A stretch of DNA of 64,000 nucleotides from a virus (lineage: Duplodnaviria; Heunggongvirae; Uroviricota; Caudoviricetes), in IMG/VR virus record IMGVR_UViG_3300049215_000227, positions 39,998-103,997 of that record; one strand, written 5' to 3'. Below are positions 5,621 to 13,248 of the stretch, piece after piece. The position numbers and the translations under genes were made by a program. The notes beneath the pieces are model-generated. The model made no database searches. It was not told where the DNA came from and was given only the letters and a program-made list of their open reading frames with translations. The first letter of the stretch is position 1; every line of letters begins with the position of its first letter.

Positions 5621-6358
5621 ATGGGAATCAGAGAAGACTTTCAACCTTACGTAGACGGCAACAACTTGATGGCACCGCACCAGGTTGCACCCAACTCTGG
5701 CAGGGGTTCTGACAATGGAACCATGTACACGAGCGAGTACTTCATCATGCTGAAGAAGAACAGCGTGCTCACCGAAGAGGACAAGGAAGACTACGAGGAT
5801 CGAATTGAGCCGTGCATCGACCTAGAAGGAATGCTCAACCGTGCACCGAATGACTCCGATCAAGAAGGACCGGACGACTACTATGGGGTTCTCAACGGCT
5901 GCATGGAGCTGGGAAACGTCTCGATCCCGCGAAGATTCCTGAAGGCCTTGATCCGCAACCTTGGCTTCTTGAACAATAGCCAGCCGGAAAAATGGACGCT
6001 GAACTCGTTCTTGGCTCGCCAGATGCAACTTACTTGCTGCATGGTTAACGCCTCATTCCCTAGTTGGGTAAACCCTCTTCACTGGCTGGTACGAATTTTA
6101 GCCAGCCCACTGTATCTCTACAGCGCAATCTGCTTGCTCGTCAGCTGCATCGGTACGGATACCGGAGACACGGACGCCAGGAGACTCGCTTGGCATCTCG
6201 GAAACAACGTTGGCAAGAGATCGCTCCTGTGCTGGCTGGCGTACAAGGTTTGGCTGCGAAGACTTTACAAGGATTATGCTGGCGGGATGAGCGACGTCGC
6301 GAAGATCTATTACGGACCCGCGGGAGATAACGCTTACAGTAGATGGTGGCGCACCTAG
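5621..6358 (+). CDS. hypothetical protein (predicted alpha-helical)
   Basis: 245-aa ORF; TG-n-TACAAT 6 nt before ATG; TAG stop overlaps the 3' end of a tRNA on the opposite strand. Confidence 0.75.
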   Translation: MGIREDFQPYVDGNNLMAPHQVAPNSGRGSDNGTMYTSEYFIMLKKNSVLTEEDKEDYEDRIEPCIDLEGMLNRAPNDSDQEGPDDYYGVLNGCMELGNVSIPRRFLKALIRNLGFLNNSQPEKWTLNSFLARQMQLTCCMVNASFPSWVNPLHWLVRILASPLYLYSAICLLVSCIGTDTGDTDARRLAWHLGNNVGKRSLLCWLAYKVWLRRLYKDYAGGMSDVAKIYYGPAGDNAYSRWWRT

Positions 6359-6421
6359 AGGGACTCGAACCCCCGTCGCACGATGTTAGAGATCGCCGTT
6401 CTGCCGCTGAACTATAGGTGC
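6347..6421 (-). tRNA. tRNA-Sup (anticodon CUA, amber)
   Basis: Acceptor GCACCTA/TAGGTGC, D stem GTTC/GAAC, anticodon arm GCGAT-CTCTAAC-ATCGT, T arm GGGGG-TTCGAGT-CCCTC, G73, encoded CCA; 75 nt. Confidence 0.92.
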
Positions 6422-6426
6422 AAGAT

Positions 6427-6502
6427 TGGAGATCCCAGCGGGATTCGAACCCGCGACCGTGCGATTTAGAGTTGCCCGCTCTACCAACTGAGCTATGGGA
6501 TC
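6427..6502 (-). tRNA. tRNA-Sup (anticodon CUA, amber), weak anticodon stem
   Basis: Acceptor GATCCCA/TGGGATC, D stem GCTC/GAGC, GGCAA-CTCTAAA-TCGCA (two mismatches), T arm GCGGG-TTCGAAT-CCCGC, U73, CCA; 76 nt. Confidence 0.85.
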
Positions 6503-6647: not shown

Positions 6648-6868
6648 TGTGCGGGTCGATCGCGAATCGACTATAGTGTTTCCAGATGACCGTTGACGGA
6701 ACCCCACTTAACCCTCAGGGACTCTCACCCTGACACAACCCTTCGCTTTCGCGGATGTTGAAACTCATCTCTTTCTGCGTGTCTCCAGCAAGATCTCCGA
6801 CTCAAACGGATATAGCGTGATCCCATTCGGAATCTCAATCCCTTGCAGCATATCCACGCCGCTCGCAC
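6648..6868 (-). ncRNA. large tRNA-like structured RNA B (221 nt)
   Basis: Closing GTGCG/CGCAC; D-like GCGT-GGAT-ATGC; GCAAG/CTTGC arm; T-like GTCGA-TTCGCGA-TCGAC next to the 3' strand; TATAAA 6 nt upstream; shares CGGCGTGGA and TGCAAGG with the RNA at 10047. Confidence 0.6.
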
Positions 6869-6889: not shown

Positions 6890-7021
6890 TTTTTGAGGCA
6901 GGCCGGTTTTTGCGGCTCCGTTTAAACCCGGCGTCTACCGACTTCGGCCATAGCGAAAGCACGATCGCGTGAGCGGTTGCCGTCAACTAGGTTGCGGCCG
7001 GACTGTCACCTGCCTCAAAAA
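6890..7021 (+). ncRNA. structured RNA closed by a 13-bp stem
   Basis: TTTTTGAGGCAGG/CCTGCCTCAAAAA; internal GC-GAAA-GC and TCGC-GTGA-GCGG GNRA hairpins; GCCG-T-CAAC-TAG-GTTG-CGGC; TACAAT 6 nt upstream. Confidence 0.55.
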
Positions 7022-8360: not shown

Positions 8361-8627
8361 TTACTTCTTAAGGCCTAAGTCCTCTTCAAACTCAGCATCT
8401 GTGTACACGCTATCTACAACAACCCTTAGGGCGTCCCGAAAAGCCATGCCTAGGGCATTACGCATCACTTCTAAGTTCTGTAACTCTTCTGGACCATAAT
8501 GATGACCATAATGGGTGCGGTTATAGTAACTTTGTTCCAAGTAGTGCCTCATGTTGTAATAAAAGGTCCACTCAGCGGCCTGTGCAGCTTGCTCAATTAC
8601 TTCTTCTTTAGGCTTCTTAAAATTCAT
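8361..8627 (-). CDS. hypothetical protein
   Basis: 88 aa, ATGA-coupled to helicase. Confidence 0.6.
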   Translation of the reverse strand: MNFKKPKEEVIEQAAQAAEWTFYYNMRHYLEQSYYNRTHYGHHYGPEELQNLEVMRNALGMAFRDALRVVVDSVYTDAEFEEDLGLKK

Positions 8628-10015
8628 AGGATCTTTACCTTGTCCGTAATTTCCCTATAGTACTCGACGCGATTGAACCCGTGCCGAGAGAGCATGGTTG
8701 AGCCCATTGGGATGTAATCCAAGACGATGCACTTGGTCTTAGAGTCTTGCTTCCTGAGGCCTCGACCCACGGCCTGAATCACTGGTCCCTTGCTAGCTAC
8801 AAAGTTAGCTAGAACGAGGACGTCAACGTTCTTCGTGTCTGATCCCTCGCCGATCTTTCCGTCTGTCCCAACGAGACCAGGAATCTTCCCGGCATTTAGC
8901 TGCTCGACGTACTCTTGGCTCTTTGAGTCGATGCCGGTCGCAAACGGAATTCCCAGCTCTTTACTTAGTTTTTTTCCGTGCTCCACTTCGTCTACTAGGA
9001 TCAAAACGGATTTTCCAGCGGCCATCATCTTCTGCGCGTCGTCACGGATCTGCGCCTTCATGATGTCGCTGTTGAGAACGTGTTCCTTATAAGACTTGAT
9101 CTTGTCATCCTTGAAATCGCGCCCGATGGTTGGGACTTGACGAACGAAGAAGTATGGCTCCGCAAGCCAGCCGTTATCAACTCCCCACTTGATGTCGCGA
9201 CGAATCAATACCGGACCGCAGCCAGCAGTGATCATTATGTCTTTACCATCCGACCGGTAATCGGTAGCGGTAAGCCCAAAGATCTTTCCAACATTCGCAA
9301 GTCCTTGTGAGATATCAAAGAATGTGGTAGCTGGGGTGTGGTGCGTCTCATCAAGAATAACCACACCCAGTTCTGCGTTCTTGAAGTCGTCGATGTTCTT
9401 AGTAATTGAAGCAGCGATACCAACCGTAATGTCGCCAATGCGTTTCTTTCCGCCGCCAAAGAATCCGACCTTTTGCTTTCCAAAGCACGATTCAAAGAGT
9501 TCATAAAACTGAAGCGCCACAGATTCTGATGGACATACAACGAGAGCCTTCCTCTTGTATTTTTGAATGAAGTGCGTTGCGAGAAGCGTCTTGCCCAACC
9601 CCGTAGCGAGGTTAATAAGACCGCGCGGATTGCGCATCATGAGGTCAACTGCTTCCTCTTGATAGTCTCGCAGAGCGTGAGGCTTGTTGACCCACGGAAG
9701 AGTTACTTTTGCTCCTGTCTGACCGCGAAGATCTAAGGGAGTCAAGCAGTTAAACTTATCCTTCAGCATCTCGACGAAGCACGAGGACACGATTAGCTTG
9801 TCACCATCTTCCTCGTAGAGTTGTCCCTTAACTTCTTTTTGAAGTTGTGCATACGCTGGGGAATTACGAAGGTACATGTTCTTCGCCATGCGCCTAAGTT
9901 GATACTGTTTTGACTTATCGGTGTAAGTCAAGTGCTTCTTCACAAACTCCTGCATCTCGATCGAAGGATCTCTGATGATTAGCTTGTCGTTATAGATTGT
10001 GACATGGCTCAACAT
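8624..10015 (-). CDS. superfamily 2 helicase (UvsW/ERCC3-like)
   Basis: LRDYQ Q-motif, ATGLGKT, ILDETHH, GLTAT, IQAVGRGLR. Confidence 0.93.
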   Translation of the reverse strand: MLSHVTIYNDKLIIRDPSIEMQEFVKKHLTYTDKSKQYQLRRMAKNMYLRNSPAYAQLQKEVKGQLYEEDGDKLIVSSCFVEMLKDKFNCLTPLDLRGQTGAKVTLPWVNKPHALRDYQEEAVDLMMRNPRGLINLATGLGKTLLATHFIQKYKRKALVVCPSESVALQFYELFESCFGKQKVGFFGGGKKRIGDITVGIAASITKNIDDFKNAELGVVILDETHHTPATTFFDISQGLANVGKIFGLTATDYRSDGKDIMITAGCGPVLIRRDIKWGVDNGWLAEPYFFVRQVPTIGRDFKDDKIKSYKEHVLNSDIMKAQIRDDAQKMMAAGKSVLILVDEVEHGKKLSKELGIPFATGIDSKSQEYVEQLNAGKIPGLVGTDGKIGEGSDTKNVDVLVLANFVASKGPVIQAVGRGLRKQDSKTKCIVLDYIPMGSTMLSRHGFNRVEYYREITDKVKIL

Positions 10016-10046
10016 GATCGGATTCTACTCAGTGTATAATTGAGAG

Positions 10047-10232
10047 GTCAGCGCCGGCGTGGAAGGACACGCATGCAAGGTAGACTGGGGAAGGCACGGC
10101 CGGATGAGCTAGGACTAAACTCATCGAACACCCTAGGACGATGCTAGTGCGCAGGATCACTTGCATAGATTTCGCAGAGGCATATCACTAGCGCCCACTG
10201 CGACAGCTGGAATCAAGCCCAGCGCGCTGACT
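10047..10232 (+). ncRNA. large tRNA-like structured RNA A (186 nt)
   Basis: 8-bp GTCAGCGC/GCGCTGAC acceptor, D arm GCGT-GGAAGGAC-ACGC, ATGCAAG/CTTGCAT arm enclosing 80 nt, TCGCAG/CTGCGA variable arm, T arm GCTGG-AATCAAGC-CCAGC; TATAAT 6 nt upstream. Confidence 0.7.
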
Positions 10233-10239
10233 CAATTTT

Positions 10240-10605
10240 ATGCGCTACTCAAGTCATAACGTTTTAGTTAGTGATCCCCACCCCAAGAGTCTAGCCGCTC
10301 TAGTCTTGCTCACCAAGAAACTTGCACCTCGTCCACTCGGATACAAGGAGTGGCTTCGCTATCGTAAGTGGTATCTGCGCGAGCACTGGAGAAAGCACAG
10401 AGATTTCCGCTGCGCCTACTGCGGTAAGAGTGGACTCAAGAAGACTACTGACTACGACGATCAGCTTGCAACTCTAGATCACGTCAAGCCTTTATCTAAA
10501 GGTGGAGAGCGATTTCACTCTTCTAACCTAGTTGTCGCTTGCTATTCCTGCAACAGCAAGAAGAAGGACAAATCCGTAGAAGAGTTTTTAAAACCGATCG
10601 TATAA
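10240..10605 (+). CDS. HNH endonuclease (Zn-binding)
   Basis: CAYCG...TLDHVKPLSKGG...NLVVACYSCNSKK. Confidence 0.92.
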   Translation: MRYSSHNVLVSDPHPKSLAALVLLTKKLAPRPLGYKEWLRYRKWYLREHWRKHRDFRCAYCGKSGLKKTTDYDDQLATLDHVKPLSKGGERFHSSNLVVACYSCNSKKKDKSVEEFLKPIV

Positions 10606-10634
10606 TATCCATCGATAACACTTTTGGAGGTTTT

Positions 10635-10844
10635 ATGGGCGATGTTTCTTACGCCAACAAATTGAAGACGCAACTCTACTGGTGGCTTAGTTCTCATAGG
10701 CCATTTATTCTAAACGACGAGTACAGAATCGAGCTCCTGTTCGTCGACAAGAAGAATAACTCAGCCAAGATTCAAATCACAAACTTAAAGACCGGCGCCG
10801 TGATGACTCAGGAGCAGGAAGGTGTTTCCGATGTCAGCGGATAA
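10635..10844 (+). CDS. hypothetical protein
   Basis: GGAGG SD before ATG 10635; TATAAT upstream. Confidence 0.65.
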   Translation: MGDVSYANKLKTQLYWWLSSHRPFILNDEYRIELLFVDKKNNSAKIQITNLKTGAVMTQEQEGVSDVSG

Positions 10845-11355
10845 TGCCACTCTCATCTTTGAGCGCTGGCGCGCGTCACTGCGTGACCGCGACAGGAGCG
10901 TTGGAGCTGTCTCTGGTAACTTCGACGATCTGTTCGATCAGCTAAGCAGCGCTGGCGTGTCGTTCGAAGACGCTCACAAGCTTCTTCCGCAAGCCATCAA
11001 GGCGCATCAACCTGCTCCGGCGGTTGCTCGCACCATATGGAAGAATGCCAAGAACAATCCTAAGAATGCTGAGTTCACTGAGAAGGAATTCATCGACAAC
11101 TGGAACAAGGATATCGCGGACAGAGCTACAAACAGCTTCTTTGCATTCTTCCAGGTTCCAGAAGAGAACGATGATGACGGTGAACCTAAGATTTACGGCC
11201 AGATGTCCGCTAAGGAGTACAAGCTTCAGCGCAGACATGCTGATTCTTATCCCATCCTCGATACGGAGGAGTTAGAGCGTAGGTTGCAAGCTGGCGCGTA
11301 TAATCCAGCAGTTGATTTGATGAACGACGAGGACGACAGTGGCAACTCTAACTAA
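10831..11355 (+). CDS. hypothetical protein in replication module
   Basis: Overlaps neighbours; directly precedes the replicative helicase. Confidence 0.7.
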   Translation: MSADNATLIFERWRASLRDRDRSVGAVSGNFDDLFDQLSSAGVSFEDAHKLLPQAIKAHQPAPAVARTIWKNAKNNPKNAEFTEKEFIDNWNKDIADRATNSFFAFFQVPEENDDDGEPKIYGQMSAKEYKLQRRHADSYPILDTEELERRLQAGAYNPAVDLMNDEDDSGNSN

Positions 11356-12376
11356 GGAACAACTAGAGAATCAGTTAAGGAAGGCCGGCATTCAGCCAGG
11401 CGAGGACTTAACAGGTAAGTTCGATAACGTCGACGATTTCGGTAACCGCGAGTCCATCCTTGACATGTATCGCAAGGTTGGAAACTACAACAAGATGCTT
11501 GATGAGCGAATGACGCTCATCAATCGATCTCTCACTGCTGCGATCCCGTTCACCCGTGAAAACCTCTACCTGTTCTGCGCGTATACCGGCTCTGGTAAGT
11601 CCACTGTGGCTGCGAACATCTCGTATCCGCTCTGGAAGCAGCAGAAGAAGATTCTCGTGGTCTCCAACGAGGAGACGTCGCAAGACATCTGCTTTCGAAT
11701 TGCGTGCCTAGAGAAGGGCTACAACTTCAACGATTGGAAGAAGGGCTACATGCCCGTGGAGCAGCAGAAGGAGTGTCTCGCGCTCTTCCCAGAGATTACG
11801 AAGTTCGTCAAGATATGCGACGTTGTCTGGGAAGAGGGTCTAACCACCAAGATTGAAGGCATCAAGGGTCTTCTGGAGGCAGTTAAAGGTAAGGGATACT
11901 CTTGCGTTCTCATCGACTACTATCAGCTCATCAAGGATTCCATCAAGGATAAGACGCGCACTCGCTACGACGTTCTAAACGATCTTCGCATCTGGCTTGG
12001 CCAGTACATCAAGAGTTGCGAGATTCCTGTATGCCTATTCGTTCAGCTCTACTCTCAAGGCAAGCGTCCTTCGAAGGACATCGACACGAGAATTAAGGAA
12101 TGTAGTGCTGTGGTTGAGCCTGCTTCAGTCATCATCGAAGTTGTTCCTAACTTTGACGAGCAGACCTCTGACTTTGTGGTCCACAAGGATCGCTTCGGGG
12201 TGGCAGCCGGCTTCCGCATAGTGTGCCCGTTCGAGAAGGGGCGCTTCATGGATCAACTCAGTCAGCGCGAGATGGCCGAGCGTCGCCTAGATAGGATGAC
12301 TGGGCCCGAGAACAACCTATCAGCTGGCGCTGATTACGAAGCGGCTAAGAAGCTGGGCAAGATGAGCGGCACATGA
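11339..12376 (+). CDS. DnaB-like replicative helicase
   Basis: Walker A AYTGSGKST, Walker B VLIDY, FVQL and HKDRFG motifs. Confidence 0.88.
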   Translation: MATLTKEQLENQLRKAGIQPGEDLTGKFDNVDDFGNRESILDMYRKVGNYNKMLDERMTLINRSLTAAIPFTRENLYLFCAYTGSGKSTVAANISYPLWKQQKKILVVSNEETSQDICFRIACLEKGYNFNDWKKGYMPVEQQKECLALFPEITKFVKICDVVWEEGLTTKIEGIKGLLEAVKGKGYSCVLIDYYQLIKDSIKDKTRTRYDVLNDLRIWLGQYIKSCEIPVCLFVQLYSQGKRPSKDIDTRIKECSAVVEPASVIIEVVPNFDEQTSDFVVHKDRFGVAAGFRIVCPFEKGRFMDQLSQREMAERRLDRMTGPENNLSAGADYEAAKKLGKMSGT

Positions 12377-13248
12377 TCAACACCAAGAAGTGCTTAATCT
12401 GCAAGGATGGCAAGAAGAACAACTGCTTGCACTGGCATGTTGATCCGGAAGACGGCTCTATCTGGGTCTGGTGCCAAGGGAAGTGCCAGCGCGGGTACTC
12501 CATCCGCGATTACTGCTGGCACGCAGGCATCGATCTCCCTGAGTTCTTGAAGGGTGACTTTGACTTCAAGGAAGCTCCTCCAAACGAGGTGCAGGCCATG
12601 AACTGGCCAGCGCGCTTCATTCCACTTTCTGATCCACGAGCAGAGGCCGGCGTTGCGTATGTTCGCAGCCGAGGACTCACGCTTGAAGGCGACATGTATT
12701 ATGATTTAGAGAGGAAGGGAATTGTCTTCCCTTACTATTTTGATAACACTTTTTGCGGCGCGCAGACCAGGTTCATAGAACCGCGCGTCCATCCAGACGG
12801 CGAGATTCAAAAGATGGATACGCTTCCTGGAACCCGGTTAGGGTTGCTTTTTTATGGCTGGAATCAGTCGCGCTTCGTTGGAGATGTTAAGGGAGTCATT
12901 GTCACGGAGGGCTCGTTTAACGCAATCGCTATTAACCAAGCGTTCAACTTGGCTAGCGGCGGCGTTGCTCGTAATGCCTGGCGGGCTATTTCTTGTAGCG
13001 GGGCTGGCGCTACGAAGCATCATCAGGAAGCGCTTAAGGAACTTAAGGAACAAGGACTAAAAGTTATCATTGCCCCAGATCTAGACGATGCCGGGATGAA
13101 GATGCTTAAGAAGTTCAAGGAATCTGACTCCTGTACTCACTATGCACTCACCAGCGATACGCGCGACTGGAACGACATGTGTCGAGACCTAGGACACGCT
13201 GAGTTTGCTAAGTGGTTCTGGACCACAGTAAAAAGTATACATGACTAG
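12373..13248 (+). CDS. DNA primase (Zn finger + TOPRIM)
   Basis: CLIC..WCQGKC Zn-binding region; VIVTEGSFNAIA and PDLDDAG TOPRIM motifs. Confidence 0.88.
   Translation: MINTKKCLICKDGKKNNCLHWHVDPEDGSIWVWCQGKCQRGYSIRDYCWHAGIDLPEFLKGDFDFKEAPPNEVQAMNWPARFIPLSDPRAEAGVAYVRSRGLTLEGDMYYDLERKGIVFPYYFDNTFCGAQTRFIEPRVHPDGEIQKMDTLPGTRLGLLFYGWNQSRFVGDVKGVIVTEGSFNAIAINQAFNLASGGVARNAWRAISCSGAGATKHHQEALKELKEQGLKVIIAPDLDDAGMKMLKKFKESDSCTHYALTSDTRDWNDMCRDLGHAEFAKWFWTTVKSIHD

What the first reader, a model, noticed from the sequence alone, without database searches (positions are those of the whole stretch)
10047..10232. tRNA-like RNA A: 8+5 acceptor/T domain with an 80-nt pseudoknotted anticodon insert
Seen: 8-bp acceptor plus 5-bp T stem (13 bp, the bacterial tRNA-Sec geometry), a 4-bp D stem with GG in the loop, and a 7-bp ATGCAAG/CTTGCAT arm. 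The insert contains GATGAG/CTCATC (10103-10125), whose loop CTAGG can pair with CCTAG (10132-10136). GCTAGTG (10143-10149) can pair with CACTAGC (10186-10192) in the long variable-arm loop. It has its own TATAAT 6 nt upstream. It is not tmRNA (has a D stem, no G3-U70, no evident tag ORF).
Basis: partly seen in the sequence, partly recalled or inferred. Interest (0 to 1): 0.85.

Follow-up and report, generated by a model that had tools for sequence, protein, structure and literature searches.

The report
Anticodon-less tRNA-shaped phage RNA gene
The 187-base stretch is a real RNA gene that keeps the stem ends and "elbow" of a transfer RNA but has a large folded insert instead of an anticodon arm. 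It belongs to a widespread phage RNA family that I could not find in Rfam or in the papers I searched, and its function is unknown.

Summary
Window 10046-10232 (+) folds into a 9-bp closing stem, a 5-bp D-like arm (loop GAAGGA), a 132-nt insert and a 5-bp T-like arm (8-nt loop AAUCAAGC).

A covariance model built only from 45 other phages matches it end to end (54 bits, E 9e-12). No Rfam family matches, even at E 10.

The same frame occurs in more than 150 viral contigs, 34 bacterial genomes (mostly Proteobacteria) and cultured phages, including PhiPLPE, AP1 and Caulobacter phage DMCA. It is unannotated in all of them.

The stems covary: 17 of 19 pairs change on both sides. The insert differs completely between relatives.

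Syntenic relatives have an empty site or a different element at the same position. Family members often sit inside tRNA gene arrays on the tRNA strand, but they have no anticodon arm and no encoded CCA.

My best reading is a natural "tRNA scaffold" RNA whose frame gives tRNA-style folding and processing, and whose insert is the lineage-specific working part. Function is unknown.

This scan has met the same family, or the same design, on other genomes before.

The parts
10035..10040 (+). -10 box TATAAT. The inferred transcription start is at about 10046-10047, the first base of the closing stem.
   Evidence: Read from the sequence. A TAnAAT box is conserved at this place in all syntenic relatives, with or without the RNA. 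The start site is inferred from spacing and has not been measured.
10046..10054 (+). P1 5' strand (GGUCAGCGC), the acceptor-like closing stem.
   Evidence: In L013, four of its pairs are changed on both sides (GUCGGUAG/CUACCGAC).
10055..10056 (+). Two-nucleotide linker CG. The C is invariant in the family alignment.
10057..10072 (+). D-like arm: stem GCGUG/CACGC, loop GAAGGA (the GG of the elbow).
   Evidence: All 5 pairs covary across the family.
10073..10205 (+). Lineage-specific insert (132 nt plus the conserved A10205). It contains helix 10073-79/10160-66, hairpin 10103-10125, hairpin 10174-81/10193-201, and the long-range pairing 10143-49/10186-92.
   Evidence: compensatory pair 10175/10200 against L011; two compensatory pairs in the long-range helix against L013.
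10206..10223 (+). T-like arm: stem GCUGG/CCAGC, 8-nt loop AAUCAAGC.
   Evidence: The stem covaries: CCGG/CCGG, CAGG/CCUG, UAAG/CUUA and others.
10224..10232 (+). P1 3' strand (GCGCUGACU). It is followed by CAAUUUU and then the HNH start codon. No CCA is encoded.
10240..10605 (+). HNH endonuclease gene (121 aa), 7 nt downstream. It is the first gene of the rightward replication operon (DnaB-like 11339-12376, Toprim 12373-13248).
   Evidence: Pfam HNH/HNH_5, E 1e-10. The HNH gene is present in relatives that lack the RNA.
8624..10015 (-). Divergently transcribed SF2 (ResIII/DEAD) helicase gene, used as the synteny anchor.

Best explanation
RNA A is a gene for a non-decoding, tRNA-shaped small RNA. 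It belongs to a large phage family with one constant frame: a closing stem of at least 8-9 bp, a CG linker, a D-like arm with a GG loop, and a T-like arm with a xWUCRAGY loop. Together these should form a canonical tRNA elbow. Between the D and T arms sits a lineage-specific, exchangeable structured insert.

Shown:
- Membership in the family.
- RNA-level selection on the stems.
- Purifying selection on the insert within the lineage.
- Gain, loss or replacement at this site among relatives.
- Frequent placement of family members inside tRNA arrays on the tRNA strand.

Inferred:
- The frame works as a natural 'tRNA scaffold'. It gives a compact, nuclease-resistant fold and lets the tRNA-end machinery cut the RNA out of longer transcripts. 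That machinery would be RNase P, whose RNA this phage also encodes, plus the 3' trimming enzymes.
- The insert, here a roughly 130-nt multi-helix pseudoknotted domain, is the working part. It would bind a lineage-specific partner, either protein or RNA.
- In this phage the RNA is transcribed from the TATAAT at 10035-40, starting at the first base of the stem. It is made as the 5' end of the HNH/replication-operon transcript.
For: Membership:
- Model R1, built from 45 members of other phages, hits 10046-10232 at full length (54.3 bits, E 8.8e-12). This is the only copy in the 176-kb genome.
- R1 also hits L013 (E 1e-9) and three cultured phages that were not in the training set: DMCA, phiKX1 and QDWS595 (E 1e-12 to 1e-15).

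Covariation:
- 98.4% of cells are paired, 17 of 19 pairs change on both sides, and 0 of 500 shuffles reach this.
- In the 42 members found by the T arm alone, P1 is at least 86% paired out to bp 15-16. G-U outnumbers A-C by 8 to 2, which supports this strand.

Family size:
- 54 contigs by the T-arm word and more than 119 by the D-arm word.
- 34 bacterial genomes.

Selection on the insert:
- Against L011 there are 3 differences in 187 nt, compared with 5.5% in the helicase gene and 7.9% in the HNH gene (Fisher p 0.011). Two of the three differences form a compensatory pair.
- There are two compensatory pairs in the 10143/10186 helix against L013.

Swappable insert:
- Syntenic phages whose flanks are 65-84% identical and whose P1 is 84-100% identical have unalignable inserts.
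- At this site, relatives are empty (L004, L005, L029, L033, L040, L049) or carry a different element (L003/L008, R1 17.7 bits, E 2e-4).
- The distribution is patchy on the helicase tree.

Link to tRNA genes:
- 21 of 91 member loci hold tRNA or tmRNA genes, and in 19 of those 21 the genes are on the element's strand.
- Six elements lie 3-65 nt from a tRNA gene. In L182 the next tRNA starts 2-3 nt after P1.
- The phage's own RNase P RNA scores 153 bits.
Against: - There are no expression or end-mapping data.
- The start site and the processing steps are inferred.
- No partner for the insert was found. There is no antisense match of 12 nt or more above chance in the phage genome (12 diagonals observed against 10 in shuffles).
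- No conserved neighbouring protein was found.
- None of the elements in 44 searched member loci matches an Rfam family.
- Downstream terminators are only weakly enriched: 29 of 86 against 16-23 of about 85 in controls.
- In this phage the RNA is not in a tRNA array and abuts an ORF, so a purely cis role is possible.
- D- and T-arm invariance in my sets is partly by construction, because members were fished out with those exact words.
Confidence: 0.5

Rival explanations
1. The tRNA frame itself is the effector. The RNA would be an uncharged tRNA look-alike that titrates or distracts something that recognises the tRNA elbow or acceptor stack. Candidates are a host tRNA-targeting defence nuclease, a tRNA-modifying or processing enzyme, or the ribosome. 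The insert would then be a tolerated, fast-evolving filler.
For: The elbow loops and even the stem sequences of the D and T arms are nearly identical across unrelated phages, while everything else varies. Members cluster with tRNA genes. Phage tRNA sets are widely thought to counter tRNA-directed defences; that point rests on my own knowledge and was not tested here.
Against: The insert is under purifying selection within the lineage and keeps its helices through compensatory changes, which is unexpected for filler. Inserts of 42-186 nt are always present and are never reduced to a short loop.
Confidence: 0.17
2. In this phage it is mainly a cis-acting 5' leader of the HNH/replication-operon mRNA. 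It would protect the 5' end or tune translation of the HNH gene, which begins 7 nt downstream and has no Shine-Dalgarno sequence.
For: It lies between the promoter and the HNH ATG with no terminator in between. The stem would start at the inferred transcription start. Both the L013 element and the different element in L003/L008 occupy exactly this leader position.
Against: Relatives express the same HNH gene from the same promoter without any such leader. Elsewhere, family members are stand-alone, sit inside tRNA arrays, or point against the flanking genes. In L008 a second TATAAT separates the RNA from the HNH gene.
Confidence: 0.2
3. It is a chargeable translational RNA: an unusual tRNA, tRNA-Sec-like or mini-tmRNA-like molecule. 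This is the direction of the first reader's suggested tests.
For: The 8+5 stack, the 5(+1)-bp D stem with a small loop and the arm preceding the T arm recall tRNA-Sec and the tmRNA tRNA-like domain. One member lies 189 nt from a genuine phage tmRNA gene.
Against: There is no anticodon arm anywhere in the family. No CCA is encoded, although this phage's tRNAs and the tRNA next to the L182 member do encode it. The pair at position 3:70 is C-G, not G-U. ARAGORN and the Rfam tRNA, tRNA-Sec and tmRNA models are silent even at E 10. The short frame GCA..UAG is not kept as a peptide in L011 or L013. Most members have 15-16-bp closed stems.
Confidence: 0.05
4. It is a DNA-level element, such as a miniature inverted-repeat mobile element or a replication-origin structure, rather than an RNA.
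For: There are terminal inverted repeats, presence/absence polymorphism, and a position at the head of the replication module.
Against: The terminal repeats vary freely while keeping pairing. G-U pairs outnumber A-C (8 to 2 in P1; 5 to 0 in the D and T stems). The conserved parts are loops typical of an RNA elbow. No target-site duplication and no transposase are consistently nearby.
Confidence: 0.03

Closest known systems
Phage T4 stable RNAs, species 1 and 2 (rnaC, rnaD)
   Same: They are phage-encoded small stable RNAs of about 120-140 nt with tRNA-like ends. They lie in a tRNA cluster, do not decode, and their function is unknown.
   Different: There is no sequence or structure match. R1 gives at most 6.9 bits on T4 70.7-71.3 kb with filters off. 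T4 rnaC has a canonical 7-nt UUCGAAU T loop. No exchangeable-insert family has been described around them.
tRNA-like domain of tmRNA (with helix 2 leaving at the variable-arm position)
   Same: It has an acceptor-like stem, a T arm and a D-loop/T-loop elbow, and no anticodon arm. A large pseudoknotted domain is inserted between the D region and the T arm.
   Different: RNA A has no G3-U70, no CCA and no conserved tag frame. It has a true D stem and an 8-nt T loop. No ARAGORN or Rfam tmRNA hit was found. A real tmRNA coexists with a family member in L051.
Bacterial Y-RNA-like YrlA (Rfam RF02553)
   Same: It is a non-decoding tRNA mimic with T and D arms and is found in bacteria and phages.
   Different: The topology is opposite. 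YrlA's ends are at the anticodon side and its acceptor end is sealed. There is no Rfam match and no Ro60 gene was noted near the elements.
Engineered 'tRNA scaffold' for recombinant RNA expression (Ponchon-Dardel design), and the tRNA-miRNA hybrids (TMERs) of murine gammaherpesvirus 68
   Same: The design principle is the same. A tRNA body gives folding, stability and processing to an unrelated RNA cargo placed where the anticodon arm would be (scaffold) or fused to it (TMERs).
   Different: One is man-made and the other is eukaryotic-viral. This comparison rests on my own knowledge, not on a test made here.
Bacterial tRNA-Sec
   Same: It has an 8+5 acceptor/T stack, a long D stem with a small loop, and a long arm before the T arm.
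   Different: RNA A has no anticodon stem-loop, an 8-nt T loop and no CCA. RF01852 does not match. The stem length is not fixed across the family.

Membership tests
   54.3 bits, E 8.8e-12, model positions 1-121 of 121.
   Coordinates are given under parts.
   The insert here is 132 nt; the family range is 42-186 nt.
tRNA (Rfam RF00005) | Cloverleaf with an anticodon arm and 7-nt anticodon loop, a 7-nt T loop, and detection by tRNA models. | tested here: not met
   ARAGORN finds none. cmscan finds none at E <= 10. The T loop has 8 nt, and no conserved 5-bp stem with a 7-nt loop follows the D arm.
tRNA-Sec (RF01852) | UCA anticodon loop and a match to the model. | tested here: not met
   No hit at E <= 10. 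There is no anticodon stem-loop.
tmRNA (RF00023 and related models; ARAGORN) | G3-U70 pair, 3' CCA, and a resume codon with a tag reading frame after a pseudoknot. | tested here: not met
   The third pair is C10049-G10229. P1 is followed by CAA. ARAGORN -m and Rfam are silent. The candidate frame is not conserved in L011 or L013.
YrlA / bacterial Y RNA (RF02553) | Match to the model, and termini forming the Ro-binding stem at the anticodon side. | tested here: not met
   No hit. The termini here form the acceptor-like stem.
T4 rnaC / rnaD | Homology to the T4 genes. | tested here: not met
   R1 with filters off on the T4 region gives a best score of 6.9 bits, and that match is a trivial hairpin.
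Any tRNA-like RNA that is charged | A 3' CCA end and aminoacylation. | not testable with these tools
   No CCA is encoded. Post-transcriptional addition cannot be excluded without RNA data.

The most novel reading that the evidence does not exclude
Phages maintain a shared, horizontally exchanged 'tRNA chassis' system. One constant tRNA-shaped frame is processed by the tRNA machinery and carries hundreds of interchangeable RNA cargo domains. These cargos would act as lineage-specific effectors, for example decoys or inhibitors of host defence or of competing phages. Recombination within the constant frame would swap cargos between phages. RNA A would be one such cargo, installed at the first transcribed position of a replication operon.
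Probability: 0.3. Interest if true: 0.85.

Novelty: new variant of a known kind. Interest (0 to 1): 0.6.

Why it matters
Non-decoding tRNA look-alikes are known as isolated cases: tmRNA, YrlA and the T4 species 1 and 2 RNAs. A family found in hundreds of phages and prophages, with one constant tRNA frame and freely exchanged structured inserts, would be a new class of phage small RNA. It would also be a natural counterpart of the engineered tRNA scaffold.

It would reopen the 50-year-old question of what T4-type stable RNAs are for. It is testable now, because cultured phages with tractable hosts carry confirmed members. Caulobacter phage DMCA on strain CB15 is the best example.

This instance adds three things. 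It gives a clean evolutionary series at one site (empty, element A, a shortened A, a different element). It shows direct evidence that the insert itself is under selection. And it occurs in a phage that also encodes RNase P RNA.

Tried and rejected
- **Rfam:** searched at gathering threshold and at E <= 10 on the element, and on 44 member loci. Nothing overlaps any element.
- **ARAGORN:** tRNA and tmRNA search on the window and the whole genome found nothing here.
- **blastn of the region against 50,697 phage records:** no match. Only short-word searches found cultured carriers.
- **Antisense targets in the phage's own genome:** no excess over shuffles. The single 14-nt hit is a same-strand chance match inside a small zinc-ribbon ORF.
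- **Similar insert elsewhere in about 2 Mb of fetched loci:** none.
- **Conserved protein neighbour:** none.
- **Terminator enrichment downstream of members:** weak.
- **Coding potential:** there is no ORF of 50 aa or more under table 11. Under TAG=Q a 183-aa frame appears, but only by reading through 8 TAGs. It is out of frame with the Pfam-supported HNH gene, so I rejected it.
- **RNA B (window 6648-6868, minus strand) as a paralogue:** R1 gives only 9.4 bits on a partial alignment. It shares GGCGUGGA and UGCAAGG but is not a demonstrable member.
- **T4 rnaC/rnaD as homologues:** rejected.
- **Literature:** four searches, including literal D- and T-arm sequences, found no description. Fremin et al. 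2023 (PMC10690425) list 10,006 unnamed candidate RNAs from IMG/VR. I could not check whether this family is among them.

Full report
**Where it lies**

The window is bases 39998-103997 of a complete 176.5-kb phage genome with direct terminal repeats. ARAGORN finds 34 tRNA genes in the genome, and it also encodes a class-A RNase P RNA (153 bits).

RNA A lies at 10046-10232 on the + strand. It sits between a leftward SF2 helicase gene (8624-10015) and a rightward 121-aa HNH gene (10240-10605). The HNH gene opens an operon with a DnaB-like helicase and a Toprim primase.

**The observation**

The one correction is that the D-like stem has 5 pairs, not 4.

- The minimum-energy fold recovers the closing stem, the D arm and the T arm. 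It is more stable than all 200 shuffles (z = -3.7).
- ARAGORN and Rfam find nothing there, even at E <= 10.
- No ORF of 50 aa or more crosses it. A frame that opens only by reading eight TAG codons was rejected.

**Relatives at the same site**

I used the helicase as an anchor to fetch 48 syntenic loci.

- L011 (99% identical helicase) has the same RNA with three substitutions.
- L013 (74%) has a version 47 nt shorter. Its T arm is the same, its D loop is GAUGGA, and its closing stem has four pairs changed on both sides.
- L003, L008, L012 and L014 carry, at exactly the same place, a differently sequenced element of the same shape. Model R1 scores it at 17.7 bits, E 2e-4 with filters off.
- L004, L005, L029, L033, L040 and L049 have the promoter and the HNH gene with only 10-25 nt between them.
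- More distant relatives lack the HNH gene as well.

On a helicase tree, the two A-type lineages are separated by a well-supported node that groups L013 with empty-site phages. The element has therefore been lost several times, or exchanged between lineages.

**The family**

The T-arm word AGCTGGAATCAAGNCCAGC occurs in 54 viral contigs.

Almost all of these show the same architecture:
- a closing stem;
- a CG or CA linker;
- a 5-bp D arm with loop GAWGGA;
- an insert of 42-186 nt;
- a conserved A;
- a 5-bp T arm with an 8-nt loop (WAUCAAGY, UGUCGAGU or UUUCGAGC);
- the 3' strand of the closing stem, with no spacer.

The loops keep the tRNA elbow positions: GG in the D loop, and U55-C56-R57-A58 in the T loop with one extra 5' nucleotide.

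On a 45-sequence alignment that excludes this lineage, 98.4% of cells pair. Seventeen of 19 pairs change on both sides, and no shuffle or slid register comes close.

There is a caveat. Members were collected with exact D- or T-arm words, and for the D-arm set a closable stem was a condition for inclusion. In the 42 members found by the T arm alone, however, the closing stem is still at least 86% paired out to bp 15-16. There G-U outnumbers A-C by 8 to 2.

The model built from that alignment (R1) gives these results:
- It hits window 10046-10232 end to end at 54.3 bits, E 8.8e-12. This is the only hit in the genome.
- It confirms unannotated members in Caulobacter phage DMCA, Komagataeibacter phage phiKX1 and Alcaligenes phage QDWS595.
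- Iodobacter phage PhiPLPE and Acidovorax phage AP1 are also members and were used in training.

A stricter pattern finds the frame in 34 bacterial genome assemblies. Most are beta-, alpha- and gamma-proteobacteria, often on contigs of about 40 kb.

**What varies and what is kept**

The insert is unalignable between members, even where flanks and closing stem are conserved. For example, L076 and L077 share 65% identity upstream, 100% in the stem and 84% downstream, but only 27% in the insert.

Inside the window's own lineage the insert is conserved:
- The RNA differs from L011 at 3 of 187 positions. The helicase gene differs by 5.5% and the HNH gene by 7.9% (p 0.011).
- Two of the three changes, C10175U and G10200A, restore a pair in the hairpin 10174-81/10193-201.
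- Between the window and L013, the long-range helix GCUAGUG/CACUAGC (10143-49/10186-92) becomes CCUAGUC/GACUAGG at aligned positions. That is two compensatory changes.

The other (CUAGG/CCUAG) and the GAUGAG hairpin have no counterpart in L013 and remain untested.

**Context across the family**

- No protein neighbour is shared.
- Of 91 member loci, 21 contain tRNA or tmRNA genes. In 19 of those 21 the genes are on the element's strand; by my own arithmetic the two-sided binomial p is about 2e-4.
- Six elements lie 3-65 nt from a tRNA gene, spaced like one more gene of the array (L140, L156, L163, L182).
- In those arrays the closing stem is 8-9 bp, as it is in the window. Stand-alone copies in phages of 40-50 kb usually extend it to 15-16 bp. 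The outer part is semi-conserved (CCAUCA/UGAUGG), and a 5' hairpin is often present.
- One member lies 189 nt upstream of a genuine permuted tmRNA gene. The family is therefore not a tmRNA substitute.
- No member examined encodes CCA after the stem. The tRNA next to the L182 member and this phage's own tRNAs at 6347-6502 do encode it.
- None of the elements in 44 searched loci matches an Rfam family.

**How it most likely works**

Shown: it is an RNA-level structure under selection, with a tRNA-elbow frame, an exchangeable but locally constrained insert, and a genomic habit of travelling with tRNA genes.

Inferred: the frame serves as a tRNA-type scaffold, and the insert is the specific effector. 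The scaffold would provide folding, resistance to nucleases, and excision by RNase P and the 3'-end enzymes.

In this phage the -10 box ends 5-6 nt before the stem. The primary transcript should therefore begin with the stem and continue into the HNH mRNA. Whether the RNA is then cut off is unknown.

I put this reading at about 0.5. The rivals are:
- the frame itself acts as a decoy (0.17);
- a purely cis leader role here (0.2);
- a charged translational RNA (0.05);
- a DNA-level element (0.03).

**Comparison with known RNAs, and novelty**

The closest known things are the T4 species 1 and 2 RNAs, the tmRNA tRNA-like domain, YrlA, and, as a design, the engineered tRNA scaffold. Membership in tRNA, tRNA-Sec, tmRNA, YrlA and T4 rnaC/rnaD was tested and failed.

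Four literature searches, including the literal arm sequences, found no description.

Earlier notes of this scan report the same family, or the same design, in other genomes. I re-derived membership, covariation and insert swapping independently. I add the site polymorphism, the selection on the insert, the statistics on tRNA arrays, and the CCA contrast.

Noticed in passing
window 6648-6868 (- strand): 'RNA B' is a promoter-driven structured RNA of about 220 nt, upstream of a 45-aa membrane-like ORF and the two CUA tRNAs. It shares GGCGUGGA and UGCAAGG with RNA A and has a canonical-looking T arm (GUCGA-UUCGCGA-UCGAC). Model R1 gives only 9.4 bits on a partial alignment, so paralogy is not demonstrated.
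   Followed up: partly
window ~6893-7021 (- strand): A third ORF-free structured segment is closed by a 10-bp stem (UUGAGGCAGG/CCUGCCUCAA). R1 scores it weakly (8.2 bits, E 0.065). It is unexplained.
   Followed up: partly
window 6347-6421 and 6427-6502 (- strand): Two tandem tRNA genes carry the anticodon CUA (amber suppressors; ARAGORN labels them Pyl). Both have encoded CCA. This suggests TAG read-through or recoding in this phage, which I did not examine.
   Followed up: no
window 10606-10821: The stretch after the HNH gene diverges by only 1.9% between the window and L011, against 5-8% in neighbouring genes. It may hold a conserved small gene or another constrained non-coding element.
   Followed up: no
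L002:643-946 (genome 152723-153026): The phage encodes a bacterial class-A RNase P RNA (Rfam 153 bits, E 1e-48) inside its tRNA array. Next to it is a sub-threshold tRNA-Sec-model hit (42.6 bits, below the cut-off of 47) on a gene that ARAGORN calls tRNA-Ser.
   Followed up: partly
L008:2818-2967 (- strand); the same element in L003, L012, L014: A differently sequenced element with the same architecture occupies the same promoter-proximal site in related phages. It has D loop GAUAGGGA and T loop CGCUAAAU, and a second TATAAT lies between it and the HNH gene.
   Followed up: partly
L051:941-1273 (- strand): A viral contig with a family member also encodes a genuine permuted (two-piece) tmRNA with tag ADYNAFELKAA. 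It lies 189 nt downstream of the member, followed by tRNA-Gln and tRNA-Pro.
   Followed up: partly
L137:7856-7891 (- strand): An abiF RNA motif (Rfam RF03085, 41 bits, just above its threshold) lies 12 nt downstream of a family member. Burkholderiales-2 RNA motifs lie divergently, about 130 nt (L054) and about 900 nt (L142) upstream of the member.
   Followed up: no
L104, L102, L094, L105 (downstream of the elements): In many 40-50-kb phages the element is followed by about 100-150 nt of further structured RNA, ending in a hairpin plus CACCAUCAA. This repeats the 5' start of the closing stem and could pair with the stem's 3' strand instead, giving a possible alternative helix or a tandem unit boundary.
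   Followed up: no
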